Source: a virus (taxonomy: Duplodnaviria; Caudoviricetes). Taken from it: 64,000 bases of DNA. The notes below the pieces were generated by a model. That model ran no database searches and was not told where the DNA came from. It saw only the letters and a list, made by a program, of their open reading frames with translations. Both the position numbers and the translations under genes were made by a program. Positions 7,108 through 62,771 of this stretch are shown in pieces. The DNA lies in the IMG/VR virus record IMGVR_UViG_3300037067_013742, positions 1 through 64,000 of that record. One strand, written 5' to 3'. The first letter of the stretch is position 1; each line of letters opens with the position of its first letter.

Positions 7108-7789
7108 CTAGAAGAGCTCATCTAGCTCTCCTCTCAAATACTTCTTTGCGGATATCTTCTTTTGGGTTATGTGATCTATGACTTGATCGTCTCTTATTCT
7201 GATAGTTCGTCGCTTTTCCCCTCGCATTCCACATCCGAGTTGCTCTTTTCTTGTTGAGCTTCTCTCCTTCTGATCGGATTCATCGGCTAACTGTTTTAGT
7301 CTTGAAGCTAATATAGCTTTAGCTGCTTGTAGATTCATACTCTGAGATCTCTCAGATTCATACTTCACTACAATTCCAGTTGGTTTATGAGTCAATCTAA
7401 CTGCTGATGAAGTCTTATTTCTTTTTTGCCCGCCGGCACCAGAACCTCTAAATACTTCTTTAGAGATTTCTCCATCATCAATAATTAAATCTCTAGGATT
7501 TACTGGCTCTAGTATAGCTACTGTAATAGTAGAGGTTTGAACTCTACCTCTCTTCTCAGTAGAAGGGATTCTTTGCCATCTATGCCCACCGGACTCATTA
7601 GCAAAAATCTTCCTAGCATCCTTACCAGAGACTTCTACTATTATGATTGATGGTCGCTGATCCAAAAGAGTTAAGTTAAAGATGTTTCCGAGCGCAGTAC
7701 TTAGTATAGATGCTTAGCTGATCTACGATAAGAAGCTTAGCATCTGACCCACCCTCGGCCGCGTGAATTTCTACTATGATAGTTTCCAT
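7108..7789 (-). CDS. Class I peptide release factor, RF1-like (PxT), lacking domain 1; requires +1 frameshift at 7681-7675
   Basis: ORF0 7789-7676 METIIVEIHAAEGGSDAKLL...KHL* continues in the +1 frame as NLTLLDQRPS...; HRWQRIPSTEKRGRVQTS, GAGGQ, SERSQ; about 226 aa. Confidence 0.85.
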
Positions 7790-8474: not shown

Positions 8475-8548
8475 CGACCTGGACGGGATTCGAACCCGCA
8501 TTCAATAGCTTGAAGGGCTATGGTCCATACCAATTAGACGGCCAGGCC
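8475..8548 (-). tRNA. tRNA-Glu(TTC), C33
   Basis: Cloverleaf; ATAGC-CCTTCAA-GCTAT; GGTTCGAATCC. Confidence 0.8.
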
Positions 8549-8550
8549 AA

Positions 8551-8624
8551 TGGAGCTGGTAGTAGGAATTGAGCCCACATCTATCGGGTACAGACCGATT
8601 GCTCTACCATTGAGCTATACCAGC
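8551..8624 (-). tRNA. tRNA-Thr(TGT), C33
   Basis: ATCGG-TCTGTAC-CCGAT; CCA encoded. Confidence 0.8.
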
Positions 8625-8626
8625 AA

Positions 8627-8698
8627 AGCTGACGACCGGAGTCGGACCGGTATTTCCTACTTACGGGGCAGGGGTTCTACCAATTAAACTACATCAGC
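8627..8698 (-). tRNA. tRNA-Thr(CGT), C33
   Basis: CCTGC-CCCGTAA-GTAGG. Confidence 0.8.
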
Positions 8699-8732
8699 AA
8701 GACGACAACTAAAGCATCTTTTTCTGGCGGGG

Positions 8733-8803
8733 CGGCCCTAGAGAGAATCGAACTCTCCTTTGTGGTCTGAGAAACCACCGTCCTCCCAGTAGACGACAGG
8801 GCC
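8733..8803 (-). tRNA. tRNA-Glu(CTC)
   Basis: GTGGT-TTCTCAG-ACCAC. Confidence 0.85.
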
Positions 8804-8806
8804 ATA

Positions 8807-8880
8807 TGTAGGTGGCGGGCCTCGAACCCACGACCTCCGACTTGGCAAGCCGGCGCTCTTTCCAACTGAGCCACACCTAC
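8807..8880 (-). tRNA. tRNA-Gly(GCC)
   Basis: CCGGC-TTGCCAA-GTCGG. Confidence 0.85.
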
Positions 8881-8882
8881 GA

Positions 8883-8966
8883 CGGAGGACGGGAGATTCG
8901 AACTCCATACGGTTAAGTACGCATTGATTAGCAGTCAAGCTCAGTGCCCTACTGATTCTATCCTCC
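8883..8966 (-). tRNA. tRNA-Ser(GCT)
   Basis: TTGA-CTGCTAA-TCAA, long variable arm. Confidence 0.8.
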
Positions 8967-8970
8967 AAGG

Positions 8971-9059
8971 CGGTAGATGGAAGGCATGCTCTCCACCCGG
9001 TTCTTCACCGAGCCATCCGATTTCGAGTCGGCGCCAGTTCCTTGACTGGTTCATCTACC
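8971..9059 (-). tRNA. tRNA-Ser(CGA), atypical T-loop
   Basis: CCGA-CTCGAAA-TCGG, long variable arm. Confidence 0.7.
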
Positions 9060-9065
9060 AAAGAG

Positions 9066-9148
9066 CGGAAAAGCGAGGGCACGATCCCCATACCTTGCGG
9101 TACGCAACGCTTTCCAAGCGTGCCTAGATCCCATCTAGTTGCTCTTCC
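9066..9148 (-). tRNA. tRNA-Ser(GGA)
   Basis: ACGC-TTGGAAA-GCGT, long variable arm. Confidence 0.75.
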
Positions 9149-9149
9149 A

Positions 9150-9412
9150 GGCGGTGATGCCGGCTCTCTACTGCGCTTACCGACATCACCCGACGGCTTT
9201 CCCACCGTCATGGGGCATGGATTTCATGCTGTGTCCTTGGCTGGCGCCCATGCTCACTGCTGTTTATCTAGTCTGGACCTGACCATAATAACAGCTGCCG
9301 CTACCAGACCCTCAAAAGGTCATGGCGTAGAGATAGATTCGTCAGAAGGTCCGCACCCCTATCTGACAACCCCGGATAGGAACACTGTGCGGTCACTCGT
9401 CTACCGGATCAC
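9150..9412 (-). ncRNA. Candidate structured ncRNA inside the tRNA array
   Basis: GC-rich gap with no credible ORF; many complementary segments, several interleaved. Confidence 0.5.
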
Positions 9413-9428
9413 AAACTATATAAGAAAT

Positions 9429-9992
9429 TTAATCATGCTCTAGTTCAGTATTCCAATACAGCCACGACTGCCAACATTCTGGGATTGAACTAGAGTCTTC
9501 TACATGGAAGGCAATAAGAGGCAAGCTCTTTGGCTTTACTGGCTGCTTCAAGAGCTTCATCTTTGCTTGCTGCGGAGTCTTGTTCTCTTTGCGGGCGTTA
9601 CAATCGTAGCAAGAAGTTACGATATTCTCCCATACAGTCTTACCACCTTGAGATCTTGGGATTACGTGATCATAGTTCAATTGATTAGTAGGCAACTTTC
9701 GTCCGCAGTACTGGCACTGCCAATTATCTCTGGTAAGGACGTTCATTCTTGAGAAACGAACAGCCTTCCTCCTAGAGATTCTAGAGAGTAGTCTGACTAC
9801 GGCGGGCATCTTCAAGAGCATTGTCCATCCATGAGACTGAGCTCTCTTAGCCTGATCGGGAGTCATTAGAGGCTCGTCATAACACTCGATAACTTCGGCC
9901 TTTTGGTCAAAAATTAGCGATACTGCTCTCTGCCAGCTGATTACTTTGTGCGGCGTGTAACCGATATCCAAGACGAGTGTACGAGCGCTCAT
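9429..9992 (-). CDS. HNH endonuclease (McrA/COG1403-like)
   Basis: RD.WQCQYCG...DHVIPRSQGG..WENIVTSCYDCN; SD GGAGG. Confidence 0.9.
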   Translation of the reverse strand: MSARTLVLDIGYTPHKVISWQRAVSLIFDQKAEVIECYDEPLMTPDQAKRAQSHGWTMLLKMPAVVRLLSRISRRKAVRFSRMNVLTRDNWQCQYCGRKLPTNQLNYDHVIPRSQGGKTVWENIVTSCYDCNARKENKTPQQAKMKLLKQPVKPKSLPLIAFHVEDSSSIPECWQSWLYWNTELEHD

Positions 9993-10024
9993 AACATCCT
10001 CCGTTTCTTTAGTTTACCTCCCAA

Positions 10025-10099
10025 TGGTGCGTCATCAGGGACTTGAACCCTGCACTCTGGAGCTTGAATCCAGCGTCTTTGCCGGTAGACTAATGACGC
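10025..10099 (-). tRNA. tRNA-Leu(CAA), short variable arm
   Basis: CTGGA-TTCAAGC-TCCAG; A73-CCA. Confidence 0.75.
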
Positions 10100-10114
10100 A
10101 GTTAAGATTTCTGA

Positions 10115-10189
10115 TGCTGCTGGTCGGAGTCGAACCGACAACAAATTGATTTTAAATCAATCCTCTCTGCCAAATTGGAGCACAGCAGC
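10115..10189 (-). tRNA. tRNA-Leu(TAA), short variable arm
   Basis: ATTGA-TTTAAAA-TCAAT. Confidence 0.8.
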
Positions 10190-10190
10190 T

Positions 10191-10267
10191 TGGTGGCCAT
10201 GAACAGATTTGAACTGTTAACTTTTACCTTCTCGTGGTAGTGTCTCTGCCAATTGGACTACATGGCC
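10191..10267 (-). tRNA. tRNA-Leu(GAG), short arm, C33
   Basis: TACC-ACGAGAA-GGTA; CCA; overlapped by the HNH 3' end. Confidence 0.7.
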
Positions 10268-10951
10268 ATCTTTATTTAGCTTCCTTATAATATATTTTCT
10301 AATGGCGTTATCTGAAACTCCTAATCTCTTTCCTGTTGCTAGAAAAGAAGTTCTTTGCGTTTCTTCTATTATTTCCTCTACTGAGGGCCAGGAGATCTTT
10401 GGTGGTCTTTGCTTCATTGCACAGGAGCGGCATCGGACAGACCGCTCCGATACCTTTTCCCCGCAATCCTTACAGGTGCCACTCTTCCTATTTCTTCTTA
10501 GCCTATTCTCATTTGTCTTCTGTGTATGACAATTTGGACATAGAATTTCTAGATTATCTAGCTTGCTGTTTCTAAAATTGCCATCTTTGTGATGAATCTG
10601 TAGAGAGAGCGGTTTGCCCTGCCAAGTTTCTCCAGTCCTACAATTTGTGCAGATGAAGGCAATATTTAATTCCCGCAAGGCCCTCTCGAGATATTCTCTC
10701 TTAGGCCTGTCTTCATAGTTATCCGAAAGGATTTCTTCGGGCGTTTTTCTAGAGGGCGAAATAGCCCCCTTACGCCAACGCTGACTTGAAAAGTGGGAGG
10801 TATCTATCTTAAAGTGTCTAATCCTTTTTGCAATATATGACTGAGCTCCAGTGTCTGGCGTTAGCCCTAAGATTCGGGCTACTTCTCTAAAAGACCTTGA
10901 TGTTTCTACGATAGGGGAAAGAATTTCTATACTGTACTTGTGGTAAGTCAT
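10217..10951 (-). mobile_element. Free-standing HNH homing endonuclease
   Basis: LQIHHKDGNFRNSKLDNLEILCPNCH, Zn ribbon, C-terminal HTH. Confidence 0.85.
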
Positions 10952-10993
10952 ACCAATAAGTATAGCACAGGTTGGTTATTGGTTCGAGCTTAG

Positions 10994-11069
10994 TACCACG
11001 AGGGAGATTCGAACTCCCACGAACCAAGTTCTGAGCTTGGGGCCTCATACCAATTTGGACTACCGTGGC
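10994..11069 (-). tRNA. tRNA-Leu(CAG), short variable arm
   Basis: CCAAG-CTCAGAA-CTTGG. Confidence 0.8.
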
Positions 11070-12083
11070 TTACTTCTTCATAACTTTTGTTTCCGGCGGG
11101 ATACCCCATAGGTTTAGGACAAACTTTCTCTCTGGCTTATCTTCTAGCGCCCCGCTAAAAAAAGGATCTTCATAATCTGATTCTAAAGATAGATCCTTCC
11201 ATCCATCATCTATAGCCATACATACTGTATGACTTATCTTATGTATTACTTGAATTGGAGAACCTTCTAAATCATATTCAGAGAACTCACAGAATAATTT
11301 CTTATCAGACATATCGCACGCCCGCTAAAGTAAAGTTTGGGTACTTCTCGTAGAGCTCATAAATACCATGCTCTTTATTCTCTACCTGATTAATTGCTCT
11401 CTCTGGATCGTGGGTAAGAAGCCATCCGTTACCCCAACCCTTAGTCCCCTCTTTATCAGATAGATAAACCTGCATTGCATCTTCTTCTATTCCCTGCTCT
11501 AGATGGCTTAGGTGGAAGGGGGCTAGAAGGACAAAATGGGTTGTTGTGGCTATTCTCGAGGGTAGACTGTAGCTGTATATAACGATCTCTCTGTTGGTCT
11601 TCCAGAGGGTCATATCTCCTACTCGCCTAATGAATTCTGCCATCTTTTCTCCTATTTGTTTGGGCGCGAGAAGAATCGAACTTCTAACTTATCTTCTGAT
11701 AGAGCTTTTACAGTATCTACTAGACCAGCATCTCTTATGGTTTTTCCGGGGAGGATTAATACTTCGTCGGCATTAAATATATTGTAGTCTTCTCTACTTA
11801 GCCCTTCTAAAAAGATTACCGAGCCATCGACATCAAGAGACTCTACGATCATATTTATGCGTTCAGAGTACTGACCTTCTATCCTAACTTTGATCTCTCC
11901 GGGAGTGCTATTTGCCGAGATTATTAAAGCTCCATCAGAAAGGACAGAAGCGCTAGCTCCTTTTCTAATATCAATCTGGATTGAGAAGAGTTCTAGCTCT
12001 CTATCTTCATTGCTATCTTTATGAGAGGAGTAGGCTTTTATAATTTTTGGCGCCAGAGAAAAATCTCTTGTAGCTATTAGCAT
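11070..12083 (-). CDS. Three hypothetical proteins (11070-11312, 11305-11643, 11652-12083) inside the tRNA array
   Basis: Abutting same-strand ORFs. Confidence 0.6.
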
Positions 12084-12134
12084 TATCGATCCTCTAGAGT
12101 TCTATTCATTAAGTAACGAGCGTCAATCTTTTAG

Positions 12135-12371
12135 CGTGGGTGGCGGGATTTGAACCCGCGTTATACTAGAACCTAGGCATTACCCCAGGCCTGGTTAGTT
12201 CTTGGTAAACGCGCTTCCCTACAATGGCGGTTTACGGCCAGGCCCTACTGAATTACTCCAGTAGGCATTGTCCGGTGCATCCGCAACCATATGAACTAAT
12301 CAGCTTAGCCAGTAATAGGCTTTACCCTTACCGTCCGTTTTCGGTATGCCCGTCCTCTGGGCCACACCCAC
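12135..12371 (-). ncRNA. tRNA-like RNA with about 170-nt structured insert in place of the anticodon loop
   Basis: Acceptor GTGGGTG/CACCCAC, D-stem GCCC/GGGC, T-arm GCGGG-TTCAAAT-CCCGC. Confidence 0.75.
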
Positions 12372-12372
12372 A

Positions 12373-12451
12373 TGGCCTCCCCGGGGAGAGTTGAACTCCC
12401 AAATCTCTCGGTTCGTAGCCGAGTGTCCTGAATCCATTAGACGACGGGGAG
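12373..12451 (-). tRNA. tRNA-Arg(ACG)
   Basis: CTCGG-CTACGAA-CCGAG; CCA. Confidence 0.85.
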
Positions 12452-12462
12452 ATTTAAATAGG

Positions 12463-12535
12463 CGCGCCTGGAGGGACTCGAACCCCCAACCAACCGGATA
12501 GAAGCCGGCGACTCTGTCCATTGAGCTACAGGCGC
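12463..12535 (-). tRNA. tRNA-Arg(TCT)
   Basis: GCCGG-CTTCTAT-CCGGT. Confidence 0.85.
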
Positions 12536-12540
12536 AAGAA

Positions 12541-12613
12541 AGACCCAGGGGGGAGTTGAACCCAACCTTTTCCGCTTTTGCAGAGCGGCGCCTGACCGAT
12601 TGGCTTCTGGGTC
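12541..12613 (-). tRNA. tRNA-Cys(GCA)
   Basis: CCGCT-CTGCAAA-AGCGG; U73. Confidence 0.85.
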
Positions 12614-12616
12614 TTA

Positions 12617-12687
12617 TGCAGGTAGTCGGAGTTGGACCGACGCCACCGATTTGGAAGACCGGGATGCTACCGTAACACCTTACCTGC
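12617..12687 (-). tRNA. tRNA-Gly(TCC)
   Basis: CCGGT-CTTCCAA-ATCGG. Confidence 0.8.
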
Positions 12688-12691
12688 TTAG

Positions 12692-12764
12692 AGCTGCAAG
12701 CCGGATTTGGACCAGCCGTCTCTTGCGTACCGAGCAAGTGCTTTACCAACTAAGCTATTGCAGC
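12692..12764 (-). tRNA. tRNA-Thr(GGT), C33
   Basis: CTTGC-TCGGTAC-GCAAG. Confidence 0.8.
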
Positions 12765-12773
12765 TTAAAGAAA

Positions 12774-13016
12774 CTATCTACTACATTCTAGTAAGAGTGT
12801 CTTAGATTCATATCCTTCACAAACTCTTTCACTTTCATCTTCACATATAGCCATCCAACGATAACGATCTTCATATTGATTAGAGATCTTTTCACTACCA
12901 GTAATCTTAGTAGGACTGCATTCTGGAGAAGCTATATTAGTTGATCTTGTCATCCAAGATGTTTGTGCCGCGCAAGAGAGAAGAAGTAGAGCTATAACAA
13001 TTAGTAAGAATTTCAT
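12774..13016 (-). CDS. Small lipoprotein
   Basis: MKFLLIVIALLLLSC lipobox; SD GGAGG. Confidence 0.7.
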   Translation of the reverse strand: MKFLLIVIALLLLSCAAQTSWMTRSTNIASPECSPTKITGSEKISNQYEDRYRWMAICEDESERVCEGYESKTLLLECSR

Positions 13017-13031
13017 TTAACCTCCGATGTT

Positions 13032-13105
13032 TGGTGGACCCAGAGAGAATCGAACTCTCATCCCCAGCTTGCAGGGCTAGTGTCTTCCCGTTGGACGATG
13101 GGCCC
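13032..13105 (-). tRNA. tRNA-Ala(TGC), C33
   Basis: CTAGC-CCTGCAA-GCTGG; G3:U70; CCA. Confidence 0.85.
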
Positions 13106-13196
13106 ATTATCCCTAGCTTCTCCTCCCACGGCTAGGGGCGTGGATGGTGCCGACCCACAATCTGGTTATGCTCAGATGGTAAGAGTCGTCGAGGGA

Positions 13197-13267
13197 TGGG
13201 CTCAGAGGGAATTGAACCCCCGATTCCTGCGAGTCGAGCAAGTGTGATACCTCTTCACCATGAGCCC
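13197..13267 (-). tRNA. tRNA-Val(GAC), C33/U37
   Basis: CTTGC-TCGACTC-GCAGG. Confidence 0.7.
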
Positions 13268-13327
13268 TAAGGTCCCCAATGCTGGCCAGCTTCCCGGCAG
13301 ACAACACTGACTCGGGATTGGGGACGG

Positions 13328-13400
13328 TGCATCGGGCCGGGGTTGAACCGGCGACCTCTCGTGTATCAGACGAGTGCGATACCAGTTTCGCTACCGATGC
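13328..13400 (-). tRNA. tRNA-Ile(GAT)
   Basis: CTCGT-CTGATAC-ACGAG. Confidence 0.85.
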
Positions 13401-13605
13401 GATTAAACGGATGATCTATCTATATGTCGTATAACTCTCTCTCTTTCGAGCGGGGACATTGCCAGATAATCCTCATCTGGGATACCTGCTCCAAAGCAAC
13501 GAATCCATCTTTGTTGATAAGTAGACCAATAACTTATTGTTCCATCTCTATGATAAGTAGACTTATACTCTTTCTTAATCTTTGGCGGCATTCTCTCTCC
13601 ACTAG

Positions 13606-13677
13606 CGGTCCTACTCAGAATTGAACTGAAATTTCAGGTGTAGGAAACCTGCGTCTTATCCTTTAGACGATAGGACC
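13606..13677 (-). tRNA. tRNA-Arg(CCT)
   Basis: CAGGT-TTCCTAC-ACCTG. Confidence 0.8.
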
Positions 13678-13685
13678 TTTGTTTG

Positions 13686-14201
13686 TTAGAAAGTCTTGCA
13701 ATAAGTAACTGGGATACTTGCCACGTTTACAGATGTGAGACTCTCAAAGTATCCAGTCCAAGCTCCGTTGTAATACTCAATAGATTCTCCAGAAGGGAGA
13801 GTTACTTGGTATCTTGTTATGGAGCCATCAGACTTTCTTATATGTTCGGCCAAAACCTCTGCATCTACGACGTCTTTTAGAAGACCAACAAACTCTATTC
13901 GTCCCTCTTCATGATGAAATGAATCACCAGTGCTGTAGATCACATAAACTAGGAAGAAATACTCTCCAACCTTTGGCTCTGAGTCCAAGTAGAAATCGCC
14001 ATACTCTGATCCCGATAACTGAACCGCCTGTACGTTAGGTTGATATGCTAGGTCGTCTGCGTCCCACTCATCATCGCTTCTTGCGTGTCGAGTAACCCTA
14101 CTACCTAGCGTATGTAGAATGTTAACAGCGTAGGATTTCGGCTTCTCCTCTTTTATATAAACCTTCTTAATCTTAACGGGCTTCTTCTTTGGTTTTGCCA
14201 T
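13686..14201 (-). CDS. Conserved phage hypothetical protein
   Basis: YSTGDSF and W.GYFESL motifs. Confidence 0.65.
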   Translation of the reverse strand: MAKPKKKPVKIKKVYIKEEKPKSYAVNILHTLGSRVTRHARSDDEWDADDLAYQPNVQAVQLSGSEYGDFYLDSEPKVGEYFFLVYVIYSTGDSFHHEEGRIEFVGLLKDVVDAEVLAEHIRKSDGSITRYQVTLPSGESIEYYNGAWTGYFESLTSVNVASIPVTYCKTF

Positions 14202-14237
14202 GGTCTCTTCTTCTTCCTATTTTTGCCGGCGAAATAG

Positions 14238-14310
14238 TCCCGAGACGCCGAGTCGAACGGCGATTGCCAGATCCACAGTCTGGAGTACTATCCAGTTGTA
14301 CGATCTCGGG
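14238..14310 (-). tRNA. tRNA-His(GTG), no encoded G-1, A73
   Basis: CCAGA-CTGTGGA-TCTGG. Confidence 0.8.
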
Positions 14311-14381
14311 AAAAGAGTCTAGGCTTCAGTAGAACTAATTATCTATTTACTTCTGTAAAACAAATTAGTACCTAGACTCAG

Positions 14382-14464
14382 TCCCCCAGGAAGGAATCGA
14401 ACCTCCATGGCCTAAAGGCTTTCGGGTTACAGCCGAAGTTGACTCCATAGCAACCTACTGGGGG
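14382..14464 (-). tRNA. tRNA-Tyr(GTA)
   Basis: TTCGG-CTGTAAC-CCGAA, long variable arm. Confidence 0.8.
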
Positions 14465-14469
14465 ATAAA

Positions 14470-14547
14470 TGGTCGGGGTGGCCGGGGTCGAACCGGCACA
14501 AACTCCTGCGCCCAAAGCAGGCGGCTTACCATCAAGCCCTCACCCCG
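14470..14547 (-). tRNA. tRNA-Pro(TGG)
   Basis: CCTGC-TTTGGGC-GCAGG; CCA. Confidence 0.85.
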
Positions 14548-14551
14548 ATAT

Positions 14552-14625
14552 TGGTGGCCGGGGGCAGAATCGGACTGCCACATTCAGATTTTCAATCTGA
14601 AGCCCTACCATTAGACGACCCGGCC
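14552..14625 (-). tRNA. tRNA-Phe(GAA)
   Basis: TCAGA-TTGAAAA-TCTGA; CCA. Confidence 0.85.
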
Positions 14626-14664
14626 AAATGTGTGCGATCTAACTCTGGATACATTTTTGAACAA

Positions 14665-14736
14665 CAGGAGGTGGGTGAATTGAACACCCCAGGCAGGCCA
14701 TTTTGGAGACGGCCCCGCGTACCCAGCGCACCTCCT
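14665..14736 (-). tRNA. tRNA-Trp(CCA)
   Basis: GCCGT-CTCCAAA-ATGGC. Confidence 0.8.
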
Positions 14737-14745
14737 AGACAGGTT

Positions 14746-14818
14746 TACCGGAGGTAGGGCTTGAACCTACAACAAACAACGTCAGAGGCTGTTGCTCTGC
14801 CAATTGAGCTACTCCGGT
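14746..14818 (-). tRNA. tRNA-Gln(CTG)
   Basis: ACAGC-CTCTGAC-GTTGT. Confidence 0.8.
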
Positions 14819-14819
14819 A

Positions 14820-14893
14820 TGGCAGGGATGGAAAGATTTGAACTTTCGATGATAGGGTCAAAGCCTATTGCCTTACCGCTTGGCTACATCCCT
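14820..14893 (-). tRNA. tRNA-Gln(TTG)
   Basis: ATAGG-CTTTGAC-CCTAT; CCA. Confidence 0.85.
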
Positions 14894-14899
14894 ATAGAG

Positions 14900-14972
14900 T
14901 GGGTCCAGGGCGAGTCGAACGCCCATGATTCGGTTAAGAGCCGAAGCCGTTACCAATTACGGTCATGGACCC
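14900..14972 (-). tRNA. tRNA-Lys(CTT)
   Basis: TTCGG-CTCTTAA-CCGAA. Confidence 0.85.
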
Positions 14973-14974
14973 AA

Positions 14975-15054
14975 TGGCGACCGAGGTGGGGGTCGAACCC
15001 ACATAAAAATCCCTGATTAACAGTCAGGTGCGCCTGCCTTTGCGCTACTCGGTC
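14975..15054 (-). tRNA. tRNA-Asn(GTT)
   Basis: CCTGA-CTGTTAA-TCAGG; CCA. Confidence 0.85.
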
Positions 15055-15404
15055 AATATAACTATTCCAGCTTCTACTTCAGCATGGCATCTAACGCATA
15101 GAAGAATACATTTAGCAGCTTCTTTCCTAAGGGCATCGATACTTCTTGTTGTCTTGCTTGAGCTAAGACCGAACTCTTTTTGGGCTGGGTCTTTGTGATG
15201 GAAATTTAAGGCCCCTATATACTTGTTATATCCGCATATAGAGCATTTTCCCCCAGCCTCTTTTACTAGAATCTCCTTCATCTTTCTTCTACGTCGAGTT
15301 ACTGCTTCGGAAGCACATGTCCGACATCGCCATCCACAGTGTTTACCATGTTGGATTCGTGGTGCGAACTCCGTGTACCCGTGCTCCTTACATTCTCTTA
15401 TCAT
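15045..15404 (-). mobile_element. Small HNH homing endonuclease
   Basis: CSICGY...ALNFHHKDP...KCILLCVRCH; likely leaderless start at 15404. Confidence 0.8.
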
Positions 15405-15447
15405 CAACCAATTATACACTGGTTAACGATAAGTGTTAGTCCTTTAG

Positions 15448-15520
15448 TGGGTCTGCCAGGGTTACGGTCCTGGACCTCGGGAAGAAACTTCCCGCATACT
15501 ATCGTATATACGACAGACCC
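15448..15520 (-). ncRNA. Non-canonical tRNA-Lys(TTT)-like RNA
   Basis: Four stems intact; anticodon arm CGGGAAG-TTT-CTTCCCG; T-loop ACCGTAAC; no D-loop GG. Confidence 0.6.
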
Positions 15521-15545
15521 AAGATGCTTTAGTTGTCAGAGAACC
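15521..15545 (-). promoter_or_regulatory. rrn boxA-like/processing-stem element
   Basis: GGTTCTCTGACAACTAAAGCATCTT; 17 nt are the exact complement of 8704-8720. Confidence 0.45.
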
Positions 15546-15585
15546 GAACAGCCGTCGCTGGGAAGCTCCAGTTTAAGCTTCCTTC

Positions 15586-15659
15586 TGGTGGGTCATAAGC
15601 GAATCGAACGCTTATCCCGAGGTTAAAAGCCTCTTGCACTGCCGTTGTGCTAATGACCC
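15586..15659 (-). tRNA. tRNA-Lys(TTT)
   Basis: AGAGG-CTTTTAA-CCTCG; CCA. Confidence 0.85.
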
Positions 15660-43495: not shown

Positions 43496-43548
43496 TGGTG
43501 CTGGCGACCAGATTTGAACTGGTAAGGGTTTCCCCATAAGTTCCTAGG
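43496..43548 (-). pseudogene. 3' half of a split tRNA-Leu
   Basis: CCTAGGA-ACTTA, variable arm GGGGAAACCC, T-arm, CGCCAGC-A-CCA. Confidence 0.8.
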
Positions 43549-43561
43549 TCTGTCTTCGATA

Positions 43562-43649
43562 TGGTGCCGCAGCCCGGATTCGAACCGGGACGGGATTACT
43601 CCCATGAGCTTCTAAGGCTCACATGTCTCGCCAGTTCCATCACTGCGGC
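43562..43649 (-). tRNA. tRNA-Leu(TAG), long variable arm
   Basis: TGAGC-CTTAGAA-GCTCA; CCA. Confidence 0.9.
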
Positions 43650-44133
43650 GTTTGTTTCTAGCTCCCCACGTCTCGGTTTGCTGATGGCAATTTGGACAGA
43701 GGAGTCTAAGGTTTTCTAATCTGTGGTCAGTATGAATGCCGTTCTTATGATCTACGTGGAGTCTTATCTTGTTACCTAACCAGGAATCAATCCCGCATAT
43801 CTCACAGCGTAGCATCCTGCCGATTTGGACTAGTCGTTTTAGTAGTCTCGATGGTTGATAGGAAGAGTTCTCTGAGAAGACCTCTTCATCTGGGACTGTG
43901 TTCTTTCTTACTGTTTGTCGGACGATCTCGGAGGTTTTCGCAGTCTTTCCCTTTGCCCAACCCTGACCTGTAAAGTGTTCGGTTGGTATTAGTAGGTTTC
44001 TGATCTTGCCATTTATATATCGGTAGTTTCCGCCGGTCCTTTTTAGACCAAGAGTATCTAGGACTTGTCCGATGGATGTGCAGTTTATTACTACTGGAGC
44101 TAGCACCTCGTGGGTATACTTGGATTGTCTCAT
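43612..44133 (-). mobile_element. HNH homing endonuclease (paralog of 10217-10951)
   Basis: LHVDHKNG...DHRLENLRLLCPNCH. Confidence 0.85.
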
Positions 44134-44160
44134 TCACTGATTATAGCATACACGCTTCGC

Positions 44161-44199
44161 TCCCTGAACTTACGTGTATGCCAATTCCACCACGCCAGC
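44161..44199 (-). pseudogene. 5' half of a split tRNA-Leu
   Basis: GCTGGCG-TG-GTGGAATTGGCATACAC-G-TAAGT pairs with the half at 43496-43548. Confidence 0.8.
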
Positions 44200-44899: not shown

Positions 44900-45350
44900 A
44901 AAGGGTGACTTCCATCTGTGCTAATGACCCAGATTTACTCGCTATAAGCGCCGTAACAGGTCTCCAACTACACTCCTATAGCGAGTTTCTCCTAGGATTC
45001 AAGCCTTACCTAGGATGGCTGGGCTGCTTAGTAGGAATCGAACCTACCTCTACGTCATCTCACCAGAATACGATAAGCAGCTTTGAGCAGAGTGTGGTAT
45101 CAGGTTCCAGGAGTTCTATTGCAATAAAGGTTACTCCCGGATTACCGAGTCCATGCCCTTGGACTCACCTGTTTGTCTTCTGCATGGGTGAATCACCAGT
45201 CTTCGGCGGGCTATCACCATTACCAGCATCAGACTAGCTATACCACTAGCTAACTACCCCATGGCGCCTTAGCGAGGTAGATTCATTTGGTGAGGGCTAC
45301 TCCTAGACTAAGTCTAGCTGCACCCAGATTAGGTGTTGCTTCGCCCTCAA
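44900..45350 (-). ncRNA. Cluster of structured RNAs including an anticodon-less tRNA mimic (45022-45081)
   Basis: GCTGCTTA/TAAGCAGC stem plus canonical T-arm; several other strong hairpins. Confidence 0.5.
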
Positions 45351-47214
45351 AGACTTTCGAAAGAACTCACGTCCACTGAAGAGGCACCGGCTTACCCTTC
45401 TTTCCGTAGCGATCGGTCGTCTGCTGCGATCCCCCCGAGAAGGGCTGATAGCCACCTGTCCTGACCTCCACGTCCACTCCCGCTGCGTTCTTCACCTTGG
45501 TGGTGGTGACGGGCTTGTAGACCGGATCGAGGGCCACTGGGCGCTTCCCCAGTTCACGAGTGATGGCCTGGTGGAGCTGAGGGCAGAGCTTCTTGTCTGT
45601 CCTGTCCAGAACGGCCTGGAGCTCGTCGTTGTTCAGGGTGGCGATGTGGGCGACACGTCCGGTCGGAAGGGTCACGGTCTTGTTGCTCTTCATGTTGTTC
45701 TCCTGTCTAGTTGAGGTCAGAACTCTCGTTCTCCATGTCTCGGGCCATTCGGATGACTTCTTCGAGCTGAGCGGCGAAAGAAATCAGAACTAGCCCTGCC
45801 GCTGCCAGGAGGGCTCTCTGATCTACCGAGAAGAGCTTCTGCTCGACGGCCATGTCGGTCTCGACCAGGTGCGTGATGCTTCTGGCGGTCTGCTTTACCT
45901 CGGCCAGGAGAAGGGCTACCGGCTCCGTTACGACCTTTGCGTCTTCTTCTCTACTCATCGTCTTCCTCCCATCGACACGGACACTGTGCGTTGTCGCACC
46001 GTTGCTTTGGACACTCACACTGATCGAGCTCTTCTCCGCAGTTCGTACAGTACCGAGGGGGAAGCTCGTCGCATCCTACTTCTTCCCAGAGAGATTCGTC
46101 CCTAGGCATTCTCACCTCCTACCATTACGATAGGAGTCATCGTGACGTCGCTCTGGGGCATTGTGTGGCCGCGAAAGAGACGGAGGTTCTGAACTGGCCT
46201 GTAGAGCTCCACATGAGCATCGAACCGGCGATTGACGATCATCGCATTGCCGCGGGCGAACTCACCGATTCTCTTCTGGAACATCTCGCTGATGGTCATG
46301 TTAGAACCTCCTGAGTTATACGGTCACTTGTTCTCGAAGAAACTTATTCTGCCGGAACCTCCGAGTCGTTCAGGGAATGATAAAGACGATCCCTCAGCAA
46401 ATCTCTCAGAGTGATCTTTCCGTTGGAGCAGTCGTAGCACCGACCTCTGCTGTAGGGGCCGACGTACTCTCCCGTTCCGTGGCACTTGGGGCAGACCTCC
46501 ACGGCGATGCTCTTGGGGTCTTCGATGACCACCGAGAAGTTCTCGTCCGCCCTGACGCAGACGTACTTTCCCAGGAGCTCCGTGGGCGGCTCACCCACCA
46601 GGCGATTCTGCTTCAGGAACTCGCCGACTCTCATCTGCCACCTTGCCAGGTTGAACTTGGTCACGAGCGTTCTCTCTACCTTCATGTTTGACTACCTCCA
46701 TTGAAGTTAGAAAGAATTTATGGGTGGGTTCTTTTGAACGAAGTGGTTGGCGGGCAACACACTATTCTGCTGATAAGACTACTTCCTAGGATCCCAATTA
46801 GCAGGAGCTTCGGGGATATTGGCTTTAGGATGGTCATACCAGCAATTAGTTCTTGGCTTGAGTGATACGCCGGCAGGAGAGAAATGATGTGAGGCTTCAG
46901 TTCGAGGGATGTCTGACTGGAGAGACGCGAGGAGAATTGGATTAGCTTCGGGAGTGCGATAGATTCCCGTCCACCACTTACCTGGATACATTCTCTACCC
47001 TCCTAAGTCTTTTTCTACACCAGTAAAGTGTTTTGGTCTTCTCGAAGCCTGACTTGGTTGTCTTTACGAGAGCCGTCTGCTCTTCGTTATTTACGGAGAT
47101 GACTGTATAACCCACAAGTTCAGTTTTGTGGACATACTCTCCGGGGAGAATTTCGATAGTCTTGAGTCTTTCGATCTCTCTTCTTGTTTCTTCGGCTCGA
47201 GACATTGTTTCTCC

Positions 47215-47294
47215 TGGTGCCCGGTAAGGGACTTGAACCCTTATGTAACCAGTTACCTTTTCTACCGTTTATAGGACGGAGAGGATACCCGGGC
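47215..47294 (-). ncRNA. D-armless tRNA-Ile(TAT)-like RNA
   Basis: Acceptor with ACCA, CCGT-CCTATAA-ACGG, GTAAC-TG-GTTAC hairpin before a canonical T-arm. Confidence 0.75.
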
Positions 47295-47420
47295 GTTTAT
47301 TCTTACGGTCCGAGAGAACATCATTTAGGTTTAGCCGCTTTTGAGACCCTGGCGGCGCATCATTACCTCCATGTGGTTATCTCTTTATTTCTTATACACT
47401 ATATCTAAAAGAAATTCATT

Positions 47421-57182: not shown

Positions 57183-57203
57183 ATCAAACCTCATTTGCCA
57201 GAT

Positions 57204-57262
57204 GCTCATCAGTGCAGGACTACTGGCTATACCTGCAGACTCCCTATGAGAGGGAGTTTCGC
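57204..57262 (-). ncRNA. Hammerhead ribozyme (type II)
   Basis: GC-GAAAC-TCCCT/AGGGA-GTC^TGCAGG/CCTGCA-CTGATGA-GC. Confidence 0.85.
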
Positions 57263-57271
57263 TTAAGGGGT

Positions 57272-61169: not shown

Positions 61170-62771
61170 ATGATTTTAAGAGAATACAGAAAGAAAAGAC
61201 CTAATAATGTACGTATAGATCGCTTTGCTTATGTTCAATGTGACGAATGTGGTAAAGAGTATGAAATCTTGATTTCCAATAGGAAAGCTTCACAGAAAAA
61301 GAAGCTTGGTACTTGTCATGAAGGGTTGGACTATTGCAAGCCTTGTGCTTTTAAGAAAATAGCAGCACCAAAACTTAAGGAGATACAAAAGACTCCTTCT
61401 TGGAAGGAAAAGCAGCATTTGTCACATAAAGGCCAACGTCAGTACCAATGGCGTTTAGATTATAAAGCAGGAAAAGCCTCCACCCCAAGAGGTTATATAC
61501 AAGTTCAAGACGGAAATGGTCGGCTTAGGCCAGAACACGCAATAATAGTTGAGAAGTTGATGGGAAGACTTTTGACTAAAGAGGAACGCATTCATCATAT
61601 CAACCTTGATAAAAGTGACAACAGAGTAGAGAATCTTTGGTGTTGCGTAGACCAAAAGCAACACATGTTGCTTCATGCTCAATTATACGAGATTGCGAAG
61701 GAGCTAATACAAGCAGGAGTAGTTGTATTTAAAGATGGTGTTTATAGCTTAAACACTAGCGGAACCGGTTCTATCTCGTTTGATGATTTTCTCCTTGTAC
61801 CACAGTTTAATGTTGTGAACAGTAGATTAGATACTGATTTAACTACTCGTCTTACCAAGACGAGATTTATAGATCATCCAATTTGTTCCACTAATATGTC
61901 TACTATTACGGAGCTAGAAATGATGAAAGCAATGGACCAATCTGGAAGTGTCGGCTTTCTTCACCGATTTATGTCAATCGAGAAACAGCTAGAGATTATA
62001 TATAAGGCAAAAGAACTTGGGATTCGCTATATTGTTCCATCTCTTGGGGTGAAAGAGCATGACTTTAATAATCTTTCGCTTTTCAATAAAGCTGGGATAG
62101 AAATTATTCTAATTGACGTGGCACATGCTCATTCGACAATGGCTTGTAGACTATTGGAGTATTCTAAAGAACACTTTCCAAATATTGAGGTCATTATTGG
62201 CAATATTTGCACTTCGATTGCCTGCCATGATTTTTGTAGACTTGGTGCAGGTGCTATTAGAGTGGGGATTGGAGGTGGTTCTCAGTGTCTTACTCGCTCA
62301 AATACAGGGCATGGCGTTTCAACTCTACAGTCTATAATTGACTGCTACTCAGTTTCGCGCCATTTTAACGTTCCTCTAATTGCAGACGGTGGTTTTCGAA
62401 ATAGTGGCGATATTGTGAAAGCGTTGGGATTTGGAGCCGAGGCGGTTTCTCTTGGCTGGTTATTATCTGCCTCTTCTGATACTCCTGGTGAGGTTATTAA
62501 TATTAATGGTTCTTTGTTTAAACAGTTTTACGGAATGGCTTCTAAAGAAGCACAGGTGCAATATCTAGGAAAGAGCCGAGAAGATATTTGTCCAGAAGGA
62601 AAGAGTGAGTTGATTATATATCGTGGAGATACTAAAAAAATTCTAGGTGATTTAGTAGGTGGGATAAGAAGTGGTCTTACCTATTCAGGTGCTAGAACGT
62701 TACGGGAATTTCGTGAAAAGGTAAAGGCTCGAAAGATTACTGATCAATCGAAGAGAGAAAGTAAGCTTTAA
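61170..62771 (+). CDS. HNH endonuclease fused to a complete IMPDH/GMP reductase (no CBS domains)
   Basis: HHINLDKSDNRVENL; then FDDFLLVP, IDVAHAH, GIGGGSQCLTR, IADGG, GMAS, PEG, GGIRSGLTYSGA. Confidence 0.9.
   Translation: MILREYRKKRPNNVRIDRFAYVQCDECGKEYEILISNRKASQKKKLGTCHEGLDYCKPCAFKKIAAPKLKEIQKTPSWKEKQHLSHKGQRQYQWRLDYKAGKASTPRGYIQVQDGNGRLRPEHAIIVEKLMGRLLTKEERIHHINLDKSDNRVENLWCCVDQKQHMLLHAQLYEIAKELIQAGVVVFKDGVYSLNTSGTGSISFDDFLLVPQFNVVNSRLDTDLTTRLTKTRFIDHPICSTNMSTITELEMMKAMDQSGSVGFLHRFMSIEKQLEIIYKAKELGIRYIVPSLGVKEHDFNNLSLFNKAGIEIILIDVAHAHSTMACRLLEYSKEHFPNIEVIIGNICTSIACHDFCRLGAGAIRVGIGGGSQCLTRSNTGHGVSTLQSIIDCYSVSRHFNVPLIADGGFRNSGDIVKALGFGAEAVSLGWLLSASSDTPGEVININGSLFKQFYGMASKEAQVQYLGKSREDICPEGKSELIIYRGDTKKILGDLVGGIRSGLTYSGARTLREFREKVKARKITDQSKRESKL

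What the first reader, a model, noticed from the sequence alone, without database searches (positions are those of the whole stretch)
12135..12371. 237-nt tRNA-shaped RNA with a pseudoknotted insert instead of an anticodon loop
Perfect acceptor stem, 4-bp D-stem and canonical T-arm flank about 170 nt. The insert holds a GTAA-capped hairpin (CCTACTG/CAGTAGG), GTAAAC/GTTTAC, and crossing helices TTAGTTC/GAACTAA and GGCCTGG/CCAGGCC. The layout is tmRNA-like, but there is no G3:U70, a D-stem is present and no tag ending in Ala-Ala is visible. It is also short for a group I intron and lacks the P7 motifs. It may be a new tRNA-mimic class acting as a ribosome, synthetase or nuclease decoy.
Basis: partly seen in the sequence, partly recalled or inferred. 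Interest (0 to 1): 0.78.

Follow-up and report, generated by a model that had tools for sequence, protein, structure and literature searches.

The report
Anticodon-locked tRNA-shaped RNA, Ro60-linked
A 237-base gene in a jumbo phage's tRNA cluster encodes a tRNA-shaped RNA whose oversized extra arm folds back and pairs with the loop where the anticodon should be. The same core recurs in about 100 phage and bacterial sequences, often beside Ro60 RNA-quality-control genes, so it is probably an undescribed kind of Y RNA, not a tmRNA, an intron or a decoding tRNA.

Summary
The RNA is real, on the minus strand (window 12371 to 12135), one base after tRNA-Arg(ACG) in a tRNA array of about 30 genes in a 229-kb myovirus. 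There is also an arm at the anticodon position, with a conserved 8-nt loop AAAACGGA. The roughly 165-nt "insert" sits at the variable-arm position.

A different pseudoknot is supported: loop AAACG pairs with CGUUU just after an invariant GUAGGGAAGCG.

About 100 homologs of 152-270 nt turned up in metagenomes, 13 IMG/VR phage records and 12 bacterial genomes. All share GGUUGCGGAUGCACCGAA ... GUAGGGAAGCGCGUUUUCC, and their stems covary. Rfam 15 and ARAGORN place the RNA in no family.

Ro60/TROVE genes lie on the same strand in 11 RNA-bearing loci. One locus reads Ro60, RNA, RtcB, RtcA, which is the layout of the Salmonella rsr-Y RNA-rtcBA operon. 8 of 12 bacterial and 6 of 12 viral carriers encode Ro60.

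Best reading: a non-permuted, anticodon-locked Y-RNA-like tRNA mimic (about 0.5). This phage has no Ro60 gene of its own. The scan had already met this family on other DNA (e1-5596685).

The parts
12135..12371 (-). Whole tRNA-shaped RNA gene, 237 nt (RNA position n = window 12372-n). It starts one base after the CCA end of tRNA-Arg(ACG). Discriminator G at 12135; no encoded CCA.
12365..12371 (-). Acceptor stem, 5' strand GUGGGUG (positions 1-7)
   Evidence: Two compensatory double changes against L014. 4-6 pair types per position across 50 family members.
12136..12142 (-). Acceptor stem, 3' strand CACCCAC (positions 230-236)
12348..12362 (-). D arm (positions 10-24): GCCC / AGAGGAC / GGGC
   Evidence: One compensatory change against L014; family-wide covariation
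12329..12346 (-). Arm at the anticodon position (positions 26-43): stem UACCG/CGGUA, 8-nt loop AAAACGGA with no U33 and no usable anticodon
   Evidence: The stem covaries across the family (GC, CG, AU and UA all common). The loop consensus (A)AAAACG(G/A)A is conserved.
12336..12340 (-). Pseudoknot 5' strand AAACG (positions 32-36), inside the anticodon-position loop
12207..12211 (-). Pseudoknot 3' strand CGUUU (positions 161-165), directly after GUAGGGAAGCG
   Evidence: At least 4 contiguous pairs in 46 of 50 members. Compensatory variants: AAGACG/CGUCUU (L053), AAAAGCG/CGCUUUU (L017b, L090), CAAACG/CGUUUG (L028), CAACG/CGUUG (L037), AUAAAACG/CGUUUUAU (rumen group)..
12317..12328 (-). Small accessory hairpin (positions 44-55): AGG / GUAAAG / CCU. 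The GUAAAA-type loop recurs in a subgroup.
12309..12314 (-). Base helix of the extra arm, 5' strand UACUGG (positions 58-63); pairs with 203-208
   Evidence: Two double and two single compensatory changes against L014
12164..12169 (-). Base helix of the extra arm, 3' strand CUAGUA (positions 203-208), followed by UAAC and the T arm
12293..12303 (-).
   Evidence: Six double compensatory changes against L014. Present with unrelated sequences in nearly all members.
12191..12201 (-). Long helix of the extra arm, 3' strand (positions 171-181); includes GAACUAA
12272..12288 (-). Conserved core, 5' block GGUUGCGGAUGCACCGG (positions 84-100). GG pairs with CC 167-168. There is a UGC-GGAU-GCA mini-hairpin and a CCG(G/A)A motif like the Ro60-contacted CGAA / GGUCCGA of Y RNAs.
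   Evidence: Invariant or near-invariant in all members. GG/CC changes to U-A in 9 sequences.
12204..12222 (-). Conserved core, 3' block GUAGGGAAGCGCGUUUACC (positions 150-168). It holds the pseudoknot strand and the CC that closes the junction.
   Evidence: The 13-mer GUAGGGAAGCGCG was the search key, so its invariance is by selection.
12221..12271 (-). Distal three-way element (positions 101-151): stem ACAAUG/CAUUGU, the GUAA-capped hairpin 107-128 and a small hairpin 134-145. Its size varies in the family, from 12 to about 60 nt.
   Evidence: One compensatory change in the stem and three in the hairpin against L014; subgroup alignment
12171..12190 (-). Accessory hairpin (positions 182-201) with the conserved loop GUAAUG. 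It recurs in many members, including bacterial ones.
12143..12159 (-). T arm GCGGG-UUCAAAU-CCCGC (positions 213-229)

Best explanation
It has a true tRNA acceptor/D/T 'elbow', so it should be cut out of the tRNA-array transcript by the tRNA-processing enzymes (inferred). The loop at the anticodon position cannot decode, because it is held in a pseudoknot by a conserved four-way-junction module carried on a long variable arm (structure shown by comparison).

The most likely role is that of a Y RNA. The conserved module, with its CCG(A/G)A ... GUAGG motif, would bind a Ro60/Rsr ring protein. The tRNA-like half would recruit or imitate a tRNA-binding partner, in the Rsr-Y RNA-RtcB RNA surveillance and repair pathway. 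Ro60 binding is inferred from gene linkage and was not tested. This phage has no Ro60 gene, so the RNA would have to use a host Rsr or act without one.
For: Family and structure:
- A 79%-identical homolog sits in the same position after tRNA-Arg(ACG) in a 270-kb relative.
- The pattern scan gave 90 stretches in metagenome contigs, 12 in IMG/VR and 14 in bacterial genomes. Five of them (3 metagenome, 2 genome) are chance matches.
- Window versus L014: 16 pairs changed on both sides and 94.9% of cells paired, against 29-47% when partners are slid.
- Core of 66 distinct sequences: 91.8% paired against 67% shuffled; covariation score 0.44 against 0.12; 0 of 500 shuffles reach the observed values.
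- The pseudoknot has several independent compensatory variants.

Ro60 link:
- A BLAST cluster of 490-570-aa TROVE/vWA_Ro60 proteins occurs in 11 RNA-bearing loci, always on the RNA's strand.
- The RNA abuts the gene in L059 and lies 115 nt downstream of it in L113.
- In L116 the order is Ro60, RNA, RtcB, RtcA, as in the Salmonella rsr-yrlBA-rtcBA operon (PMC7790460).
- No canonical YrlA was detected in ten Ro60 loci.
- 8 of 12 bacterial carriers have Ro60: 7 by Pfam plus L113 by BLAST. About 5% of bacterial genomes do (PMC4201824).
- 6 of 12 viral carrier records have a TROVE hit.
- The invariant GCACCGAA resembles the CGAA / GGUCCGA Ro60-contact motif (PMC4201824, PMC12135203).
Against: - The window's own genome (CheckV 100% complete) has no TROVE or vWA_Ro60 hit, no BLAST homolog of the Ro60 cluster and no RtcB. 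Its 386-aa vWA protein is unrelated to Ro60.
- 2 of the 4 carrier viral records that are at least 90% complete lack Ro60.
- In Pararhizobium and Mesorhizobium the Ro60 gene is not next to the RNA.
- In phages, Ro60 and this RNA might co-localise only because both sit in tRNA arrays.
- The CCGAA resemblance is short.
- No binding, expression or processing data could be obtained.
Confidence: 0.5

Rival explanations
1. A Ro60-independent tRNA decoy or sponge. The tRNA body attracts a tRNA-binding enzyme, such as an anticodon nuclease of a host defence system, a toxin RNase or a modification or repair enzyme. The locked loop makes the RNA uncleavable or inhibitory, which protects the phage's translation.
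For: The RNA always sits in large tRNA arrays of phages and bacteria. Such arrays have been discussed as buffers against tRNA-cleaving toxins (PMC8421152). Half of the carrier phages, including this one, have no Ro60. The anticodon-position loop is masked.
Against: The loop and module sequences are nearly invariant across very different hosts. That fits poorly with diverse, fast-evolving nucleases. This reading does not explain the tight Ro60-RNA-RtcB-RtcA arrangement. No nuclease is linked to the RNA.
Confidence: 0.2
2. A natural tRNA scaffold carrying a cargo domain. The conserved module plus loop is an aptamer or ribozyme with its own ligand or chemistry. The tRNA body only provides processing and stability.
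For: The core is about as conserved as riboswitch or ribozyme cores, with a four-way junction, an S-turn-like CCGAA/GUAGG motif, a pseudoknot and GNRA-type loops.
Against: No Rfam ribozyme or riboswitch matches at E<=10. The 7-bp acceptor stem, the discriminator and an encoded CCA in bacterial copies are also maintained, which suggests the tRNA end itself is used.
Confidence: 0.12
3. A chargeable, tmRNA-like RNA that acts on the ribosome. The built-in 'codon' paired to the anticodon-position loop would let it enter an A site that has no mRNA. It might work with the phage's mini release factor.
For: The rest of the molecule hangs from the variable-arm position, as in tmRNA. The acceptor end is intact and some copies encode CCA. 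A PCRF/RF-1 mini release factor lies 4.5 kb away.
Against: ARAGORN finds no tmRNA and Rfam matches only the T arm. There is no G3:U70, and acceptor stems differ freely between members, so no shared synthetase identity is visible. There is no tag reading frame. A four-way junction at the anticodon tip would probably clash in the decoding centre (inference).
Confidence: 0.07
4. An ordinary tRNA gene interrupted by an intron or mobile insertion that is removed to give a decoding tRNA.
For: The Rfam tRNA model passes its threshold on a minimal member by skipping 95 nt. Homing-endonuclease genes lie in the array.
Against: Removing the extra arm leaves an 8-12-nt loop AAAACGGA without U33, the same in all members whatever their acceptor stem. 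No group I hit appears at E<=10 and the helix order does not fit P3-P7-P3'-P8-P7' (and the sequence itself). The smallest inserts are about 76 nt. The 'insert' and the loop covary as one unit.
Confidence: 0.04

Closest known systems
YrlA / YrlB bacterial Y RNAs (Rfam RF02553; Chen et al. 2014, PMC4201824; structure preprint 10.1101/312249)
   Same: A tRNA-like D/T elbow joined to a module with a CGAA-type motif. Encoded next to, and on the same strand as, Ro60/Rsr, sometimes in an rsr-RNA-rtcB-rtcA operon. Found in bacteria and in phages with tRNA clusters.
   Different: YrlA is a circularly permuted tRNA: closed acceptor stem-loop, ends in the anticodon-stem-like Ro60-binding helix, no anticodon loop. 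This RNA has normal tRNA ends at a 7-bp acceptor stem and keeps an anticodon-position arm locked by a pseudoknot. Its conserved module sits on the variable arm. RF02553 does not match it.
Thermus phage phiLo Yrl1/Yrl2 with phage Ro60 (PMC12135203)
   Same: Phage-encoded Y-RNA-like molecules recognised by a CGAA motif, proposed to recruit host PNPase together with Ro60.
   Different: Those are stem-bulge-stem RNAs next to the phage Ro60 gene. No full tRNA shape is described, and this phage has no Ro60.
tmRNA (RF00023)
   Same: tRNA-like acceptor and T arm, with the remainder attached where a class II tRNA has its long variable arm; pseudoknotted.
   Different: No G3:U70, a real D stem, an RNA anticodon-position arm, no tag frame, much smaller. 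ARAGORN and Rfam are negative.
Class II tRNAs (Ser, Leu, Tyr) with a long variable arm
   Same: A cloverleaf plus a helix emerging between the anticodon and T arms.
   Different: The arm is 80-165 nt instead of 13-21 nt and ends in a conserved junction. The anticodon loop has 8-12 nt, lacks U33 and is base-paired.
T-box riboswitch Stem I specifier domain
   Same: An RNA element that uses an S-turn-like motif next to a short strand that pairs with a tRNA anticodon loop. This comparison is from memory and was not tested.
   Different: T-box acts in trans on a real tRNA and reads three nucleotides. Here the pairing is in cis, 4-8 bp long and of fixed sequence.
Phage T4 species 1 and 2 stable RNAs (rnaC, rnaD)
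   Same: Stable RNAs of unknown role encoded directly after tRNA-Arg in a phage tRNA cluster; rnaC has a T-arm-like 3' part.
   Different: They lack the family core. The family model scores only the T-arm region, at 16.6 bits.

Membership tests
tmRNA | Detected by ARAGORN or the Rfam tmRNA models | tested here: not met
   ARAGORN finds no tmRNA. RF00023 matches only the 18-nt T arm at 13.8 bits, against a threshold of 47.
tmRNA | G3:U70 alanine identity pair and no D stem | tested here: not met
   Pair 3:70 is G-C (A-U in L014). A 4-bp D stem is present and covaries.
tmRNA | Internal tag reading frame with a resume codon and a stop | tested here: not met
   The three frames give no plausible tag. 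Minimal members have only about 76 nt of insert, all of it in helices.
Group I intron in a tRNA gene | Match to the Rfam group I model, or a P3-P7 core with a G-binding site | tested here: not met
   No hit at E<=10. The supported helices are nested apart from the loop-tail pseudoknot, and their order does not fit P3-P7-P3'-P8-P7'.
Group I intron in a tRNA gene | Excision leaves a canonical tRNA with a 7-nt anticodon loop | tested here: not met
   The flanks give a loop AAAACGGA of 8-12 nt without U33 in every member.
Canonical tRNA | Acceptor stem, D arm with G18G19, T arm with UUCRANY | tested here: met
   The Rfam tRNA model reaches 36.7 bits on minimal member L103.
Canonical tRNA | 7-nt anticodon loop with U33 and a free anticodon | tested here: not met
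   The loop has 8 nt, reads AAAACGGA, and 5 of its bases pair with positions 161-165.
YrlA Y RNA (RF02553) | Match to the Rfam YrlA model | tested here: not met
   No hit on the element at E<=10. No gathering-level hit in ten Ro60-bearing loci that carry this RNA.
YrlA Y RNA (RF02553) | Circularly permuted tRNA: closed acceptor stem-loop, ends in the Ro60-binding stem | tested here: not met
   The ends lie at a 7-bp acceptor stem followed by a discriminator, and by CCA in L014 and in bacterial copies.
Y RNAs in the broad sense (Ro60-associated ncRNA) | Encoded within a few kb of Ro60/Rsr, on the same strand | tested here: inconclusive
   Met in 11 homolog loci, including Ro60-RNA-RtcB-RtcA in L116. 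Not met in the window's own genome, which has no Ro60.
Y RNAs in the broad sense (Ro60-associated ncRNA) | CGAA / GGUCCGA-type Ro60-contact motif | tested here: inconclusive
   GCACCGAA is invariant in most members and reads GCACCGGA in the window. The resemblance is short, and the first base of GNCGAA is A here.
Y RNAs in the broad sense (Ro60-associated ncRNA) | Physical binding to Ro60 | not testable with these tools
   Needs a gel shift or co-immunoprecipitation.

The most novel reading that the evidence does not exclude
The family is a new functional RNA class in its own right. It would be a tRNA body whose anticodon-position loop is permanently read by a built-in, T-box-like 'specifier' module. 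The RNA would be processed, CCA-tailed and perhaps charged like a tRNA, but would act as a Ro60-independent effector on the translation or tRNA-repair machinery, for example by entering ribosomes without mRNA or by blocking tRNA-directed defence enzymes. On this reading the Ro60 linkage reflects a shared stress pathway, not direct binding.
Probability: 0.15. Interest if true: 0.9.

Novelty: new variant of a known kind. Interest (0 to 1): 0.72.

Why it matters
Ro60 and its Y RNAs are conserved from bacteria to humans, yet many Ro60-bearing bacteria and phages have no recognisable Y RNA, and the partner of the tRNA-like half of Y RNAs is unknown. This family offers a second, differently built tRNA-shaped candidate partner. 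It has a sharply conserved core that can be mutated, a testable pseudoknot, and natural operons (Ro60-RNA-RtcB-RtcA) in bacteria whose genomes are available.

It is also a recurrent, unannotated component of the large tRNA arrays of jumbo phages. tRNA finders either miss it or miscall it as an intron-bearing tRNA. A covariance model for it would correct annotation and would show what else phages carry alongside their tRNAs.

Tried and rejected
Searches that found nothing or failed:
- BLAST of the element against 50,697 phage records found no match.
- Exact 24-mers from the 5' and 3' tRNA-like halves found nothing in IMG/VR.
- The downstream 143-aa ORF is an orphan. Its only relative is a contig with an identical copy of the RNA.
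- The 171-aa array ORF led only to loci without tRNAs.
- Portal-protein relatives were short fragments.

Covariance models:
- The whole-RNA model R1 also scores ordinary tRNAs and mis-assigns the 5' half of long members.
- The core model R2 mis-places the anticodon-position arm when extra domains intervene. The loop-tail pairing was therefore analysed with an anchor-based script.
- R2 run over 151 genomes of one order failed to recover its own positive control, so that result is uninformative.

Corrections and negative comparisons:
- In one search I wrote the pseudoknot one column out of register (helix 4 of that output). The correct register is 32-36 with 161-165.
- An unanchored test for the long helix did not discriminate and was replaced by an anchored one.
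- T4 rnaC and rnaD are not members.
- The window's 386-aa vWA protein is not Ro60-like.
- Ro60 genes of Pararhizobium and Mesorhizobium are not adjacent to the RNA.
- ARAGORN's 'tRNA-Gly(ACC) with a 150-nt intron' was rejected as an artefact.

Full report
WHAT IS THERE. The window is the first 64 kb of a 229-kb IMG/VR virus record (CheckV 100% complete) that encodes a portal protein and a tail sheath, so it is a jumbo myovirus. ARAGORN finds 28 tRNA genes in the window, almost all on the minus strand between 8.5 and 15.7 kb, and nothing at 12135-12371. Rfam 15 finds no family there, either at gathering level or at E<=10. The only signal is the 18-nt T arm matching the tmRNA model at 13.8 bits.

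Read on the minus strand (RNA position n = window 12372-n), the sequence has these features:
- a perfect acceptor stem GUGGGUG/CACCCAC;
- U8;
- a D arm GCCC-AGAGGAC-GGGC;
- a T arm GCGGG-UUCAAAU-CCCGC;
- a discriminator G.

It begins one base after the CCA of tRNA-Arg(ACG). Folding energy is unremarkable and does not choose a strand. With introns allowed, ARAGORN calls it tRNA-Gly(ACC) with a 150-nt intron. I reject that call below.

FINDING RELATIVES. BLAST against phage records, exact-word scans of IMG/VR and the neighbouring ORFs gave nothing useful. An ENA contig carries an identical copy.

The mini release factor 4.5 kb away (PCRF + RF-1 domains, 185 aa) has thousands of relatives. Fetching the contigs of the closest ones gave L014, part of a 270-kb contig. 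There a 239-nt sequence, 79% identical, sits in the same place after tRNA-Arg(ACG).

A block invariant between the two sequences, GUAGGGAAGCGCGUUUACC, then found a third phage with two copies. The pattern GTAGGGAAGCGCG, a gap of 25-55 bases, then GGTTCRANTCC found:
- 90 stretches in metagenome contigs;
- 12 IMG/VR contigs of 16-433 kb, besides the window's own record;
- 14 stretches in bacterial genomes.

Three metagenome hits and two genome hits are chance matches. The rest are tRNA-shaped RNAs of 152 to about 270 nt, nearly all inside tRNA arrays. Because the 13-mer and the T loop were the search key, their invariance is by selection, and the true family may be broader.

STRUCTURE. All members share one plan:
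- a 7-bp acceptor stem;
- a D arm;
- an arm at the anticodon position with a 4-6 bp stem and a loop of 7-16 nt reading (A)AAAACG(G/A)A;
- a long helix where class II tRNAs have the variable arm;
- a conserved junction at the tip of that helix, GG-UUGC-GGAU-GCA-CC-G(A/G)A, then a variable hairpin, then (U)GUAGG-GAAGCG-CGUUUU-CC;
- the T arm.

The minimal forms (L103, L058, L039) are 152-157 nt.

The comparison of the window with L014 shows 16 pairs changed on both sides: 2 in the acceptor stem, 1 in the D stem, 2 in the base helix 58-63/203-208, 6 in the long helix 69-79/171-181, 1 in 101-106/146-151, 3 in the GUAA hairpin and 1 in hairpin 182-201. Overall 94.9% of cells are paired, against 29-47% when partners are slid.

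On a model-fitted alignment of 66 distinct core sequences, 91.8% of cells pair against 67% in shuffles, and the covariation score is 0.44 against 0.12, with 0 of 500 shuffles reaching either value. The GG/CC pair changes to U-A in nine sequences. That alignment was fitted to the structure, which favours it.

Across 50 non-redundant members the acceptor, D, anticodon-position and T stems each show 4-6 pair types per position. The long helix is present with unrelated sequences in nearly all members.

THE PSEUDOKNOT. The loop strand AAACG pairs with CGUUU, which lies immediately after GUAGGGAAGCG. At least four contiguous pairs are present in 46 of 50 members. Both strands are conserved, so covariation is sparse but real:
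- AAGACG/CGUCUU (L053);
- AAAAGCG/CGCUUUU (L017b, L090);
- CAAACG/CGUUUG (L028);
- CAACG/CGUUG (L037);
- GAAAACG/CGUUUUC (L103);
- AUAAAACG/CGUUUUAU (rumen group);
- C-to-U changes that give G.U pairs (L035, L113).

In the window the pairs are 32-36 with 161-165.

GGCCUGG/CCAGGCC is broken in L014. GUAAAC/GUUUAC gains a C.A mismatch, and its 3' strand is already used by the pseudoknot and by GG/CC.

The window's subtype also carries three accessory elements: a hairpin with a GUAAAG loop (44-55), a hairpin with a GUAAUG loop (182-201) and a three-way distal element (101-151). Bacterial copies such as L116 and L110 have the first two as well.

WHAT IT IS NOT.
- tmRNA: there is no ARAGORN or Rfam call, pair 3:70 is G-C, a D stem is present and there is no tag frame.
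- Group I intron in a tRNA: there is no Rfam hit and the helix order is wrong. Some inserts are only about 76 nt. Removing the insert leaves a non-canonical loop that is identical in members with quite different acceptor stems.
- YrlA: RF02553 does not match. YrlA is a circularly permuted tRNA with a closed acceptor stem, whereas this RNA has ordinary tRNA ends (PMC4201824; 10.1101/312249).
- T4 rnaC/rnaD: these occupy a similar place after tRNA-Arg but lack the core.

THE RO60 LINK. Clustering the ORFs within 5 kb of the RNA across all loci gave, besides HNH endonucleases, a cluster of 490-570-aa proteins with TROVE and vWA_Ro60 domains. tblastn with that cluster finds Ro60 genes in 11 RNA-bearing loci, always on the RNA's strand:
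- In L059 the RNA abuts the gene.
- In L113 it lies 115 nt downstream.
- In L122 and L116 it lies 0.7-0.9 kb downstream.
- In the others it lies 2-6 kb away.

In L116 (a Methyloligellaceae genome) the order is Ro60, RNA, RtcB, RtcA. That is the arrangement of the Salmonella rsr-yrlBA-rtcBA RNA-repair operon (PMC7790460).

None of ten Ro60-bearing loci has a YrlA hit at Rfam's threshold. Among the 12 bacterial genomes that carry the RNA, 7 have a Pfam TROVE hit. An eighth (L113) has a BLAST-level Ro60 homolog that Pfam misses. About 5% of bacterial genomes encode Ro60 (PMC4201824), and 2 of the tool's 14 control genomes do.

Of 12 carrier viral records, 6 have a TROVE hit. The invariant GCACCGAA (GCACCGGA in the window) resembles the GGUCCGA / GNCGAA / CGAA motif that Ro60 contacts in known Y RNAs (PMC4201824, PMC12135203).

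LIMITS. This phage has no Ro60 by Pfam or BLAST and no RtcB. Its vWA protein is unrelated to Ro60. Two of the four carrier viral records that are at least 90% complete lack Ro60. In two rhizobial genomes the Ro60 gene lies elsewhere.

In phages the co-localisation could be indirect, through tRNA arrays. The chromosomal loci with few or no tRNAs (L116, L114, L122) argue against that.

VERDICT. The gene is a genuine member of a widespread family of tRNA-shaped RNAs whose anticodon-position loop is locked by the RNA's own extra arm. The family is absent from Rfam, and none of the four literature searches found it described. I am very confident of the family and its fold.

For function I put about 0.5 on a Y-RNA-like role with Ro60/Rsr in RNA surveillance and repair. 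For this phage that means using a host Rsr or acting alone. The rivals, with rough odds, are a Ro60-independent tRNA decoy (0.2), a tRNA-scaffolded aptamer or ribozyme (0.12), a chargeable ribosome-acting RNA (0.07) and an intron-bearing tRNA (0.04).

An earlier follow-up in this scan (e1-5596685) reached the same structural reading on other DNA and named YrlA as the closest relative. I treated that as a lead and tested it here.

Noticed in passing
window 57196-57264 (-): Rfam Hammerhead_II ribozyme hit at 43.2 bits (threshold 37), covering the full model.
   Followed up: no
own genome 205081-205153 (-), outside the window: ARAGORN calls a suppressor tRNA with anticodon UUA, which reads UAA. 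ORF statistics still fit the standard code best overall.
   Followed up: partly
window 7108-7665 (-): A mini release factor of 185 aa (PCRF + RF-1 domains, no domain 1; PrfH-like from memory). It has more than 7,700 relatives in metagenomes, several on contigs above 100 kb next to tRNA arrays.
   Followed up: partly
window 8475-15659 (-): Neither ARAGORN nor Rfam finds a tRNA for Met, Ser or Asp in the array or elsewhere in the genome, although nearly all other amino acids are covered.
   Followed up: no
window 43496-44199 (-): Two halves of a tRNA-Leu-like gene (5' GCUGGCG..., 3' ...CGCCAGCACCA) are separated by about 615 nt.
   Followed up: partly
window 45020-45120 (-) and 47200-47340 (-): Two further tRNA-like units have canonical T arms and CCA-type ends but no normal anticodon arm. 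Examples are GCUGCUUA...GUAGG-UUCGAUU-CCUAC-UAAGCAGC and ...AAGGG-UUCAAGU-CCCUU-ACCGGGCACCA.
   Followed up: no
L013:9070-9208 and L014:8294-8436: A second, different tRNA-shaped RNA of about 140 nt in the relatives. It has a D-arm-like GGACCAGUGGUAGGUC, a T arm and a GGCGAAAG motif, which is the YrlA-type GNCGAANG. It has no BLAST homolog in the window's genome.
   Followed up: partly
L048:936-1016 (-): An 81-nt sequence in a phage-like tRNA array scores 63 bits against the Rfam tmRNA model end to end, skipping the whole middle. It may be a bare tmRNA-like tRNA domain.
   Followed up: no
window 61170-62771 (+): An IMP dehydrogenase / GMP reductase ORF with an HNH_3 endonuclease segment at residues 123-163, ahead of the catalytic domain. 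HNH genes also lie inside the tRNA array at 9429-9992 and 10217-10951.
   Followed up: no
L108 (phage T4 70908-71171): T4 rnaC and rnaD, stable RNAs of unknown role, also follow tRNA-Arg directly. rnaC carries GAGUAGCGU twice, a CGUUUUU...ACGGAAC stretch and a T arm. This resembles the family loosely, but it is not a match.
   Followed up: partly
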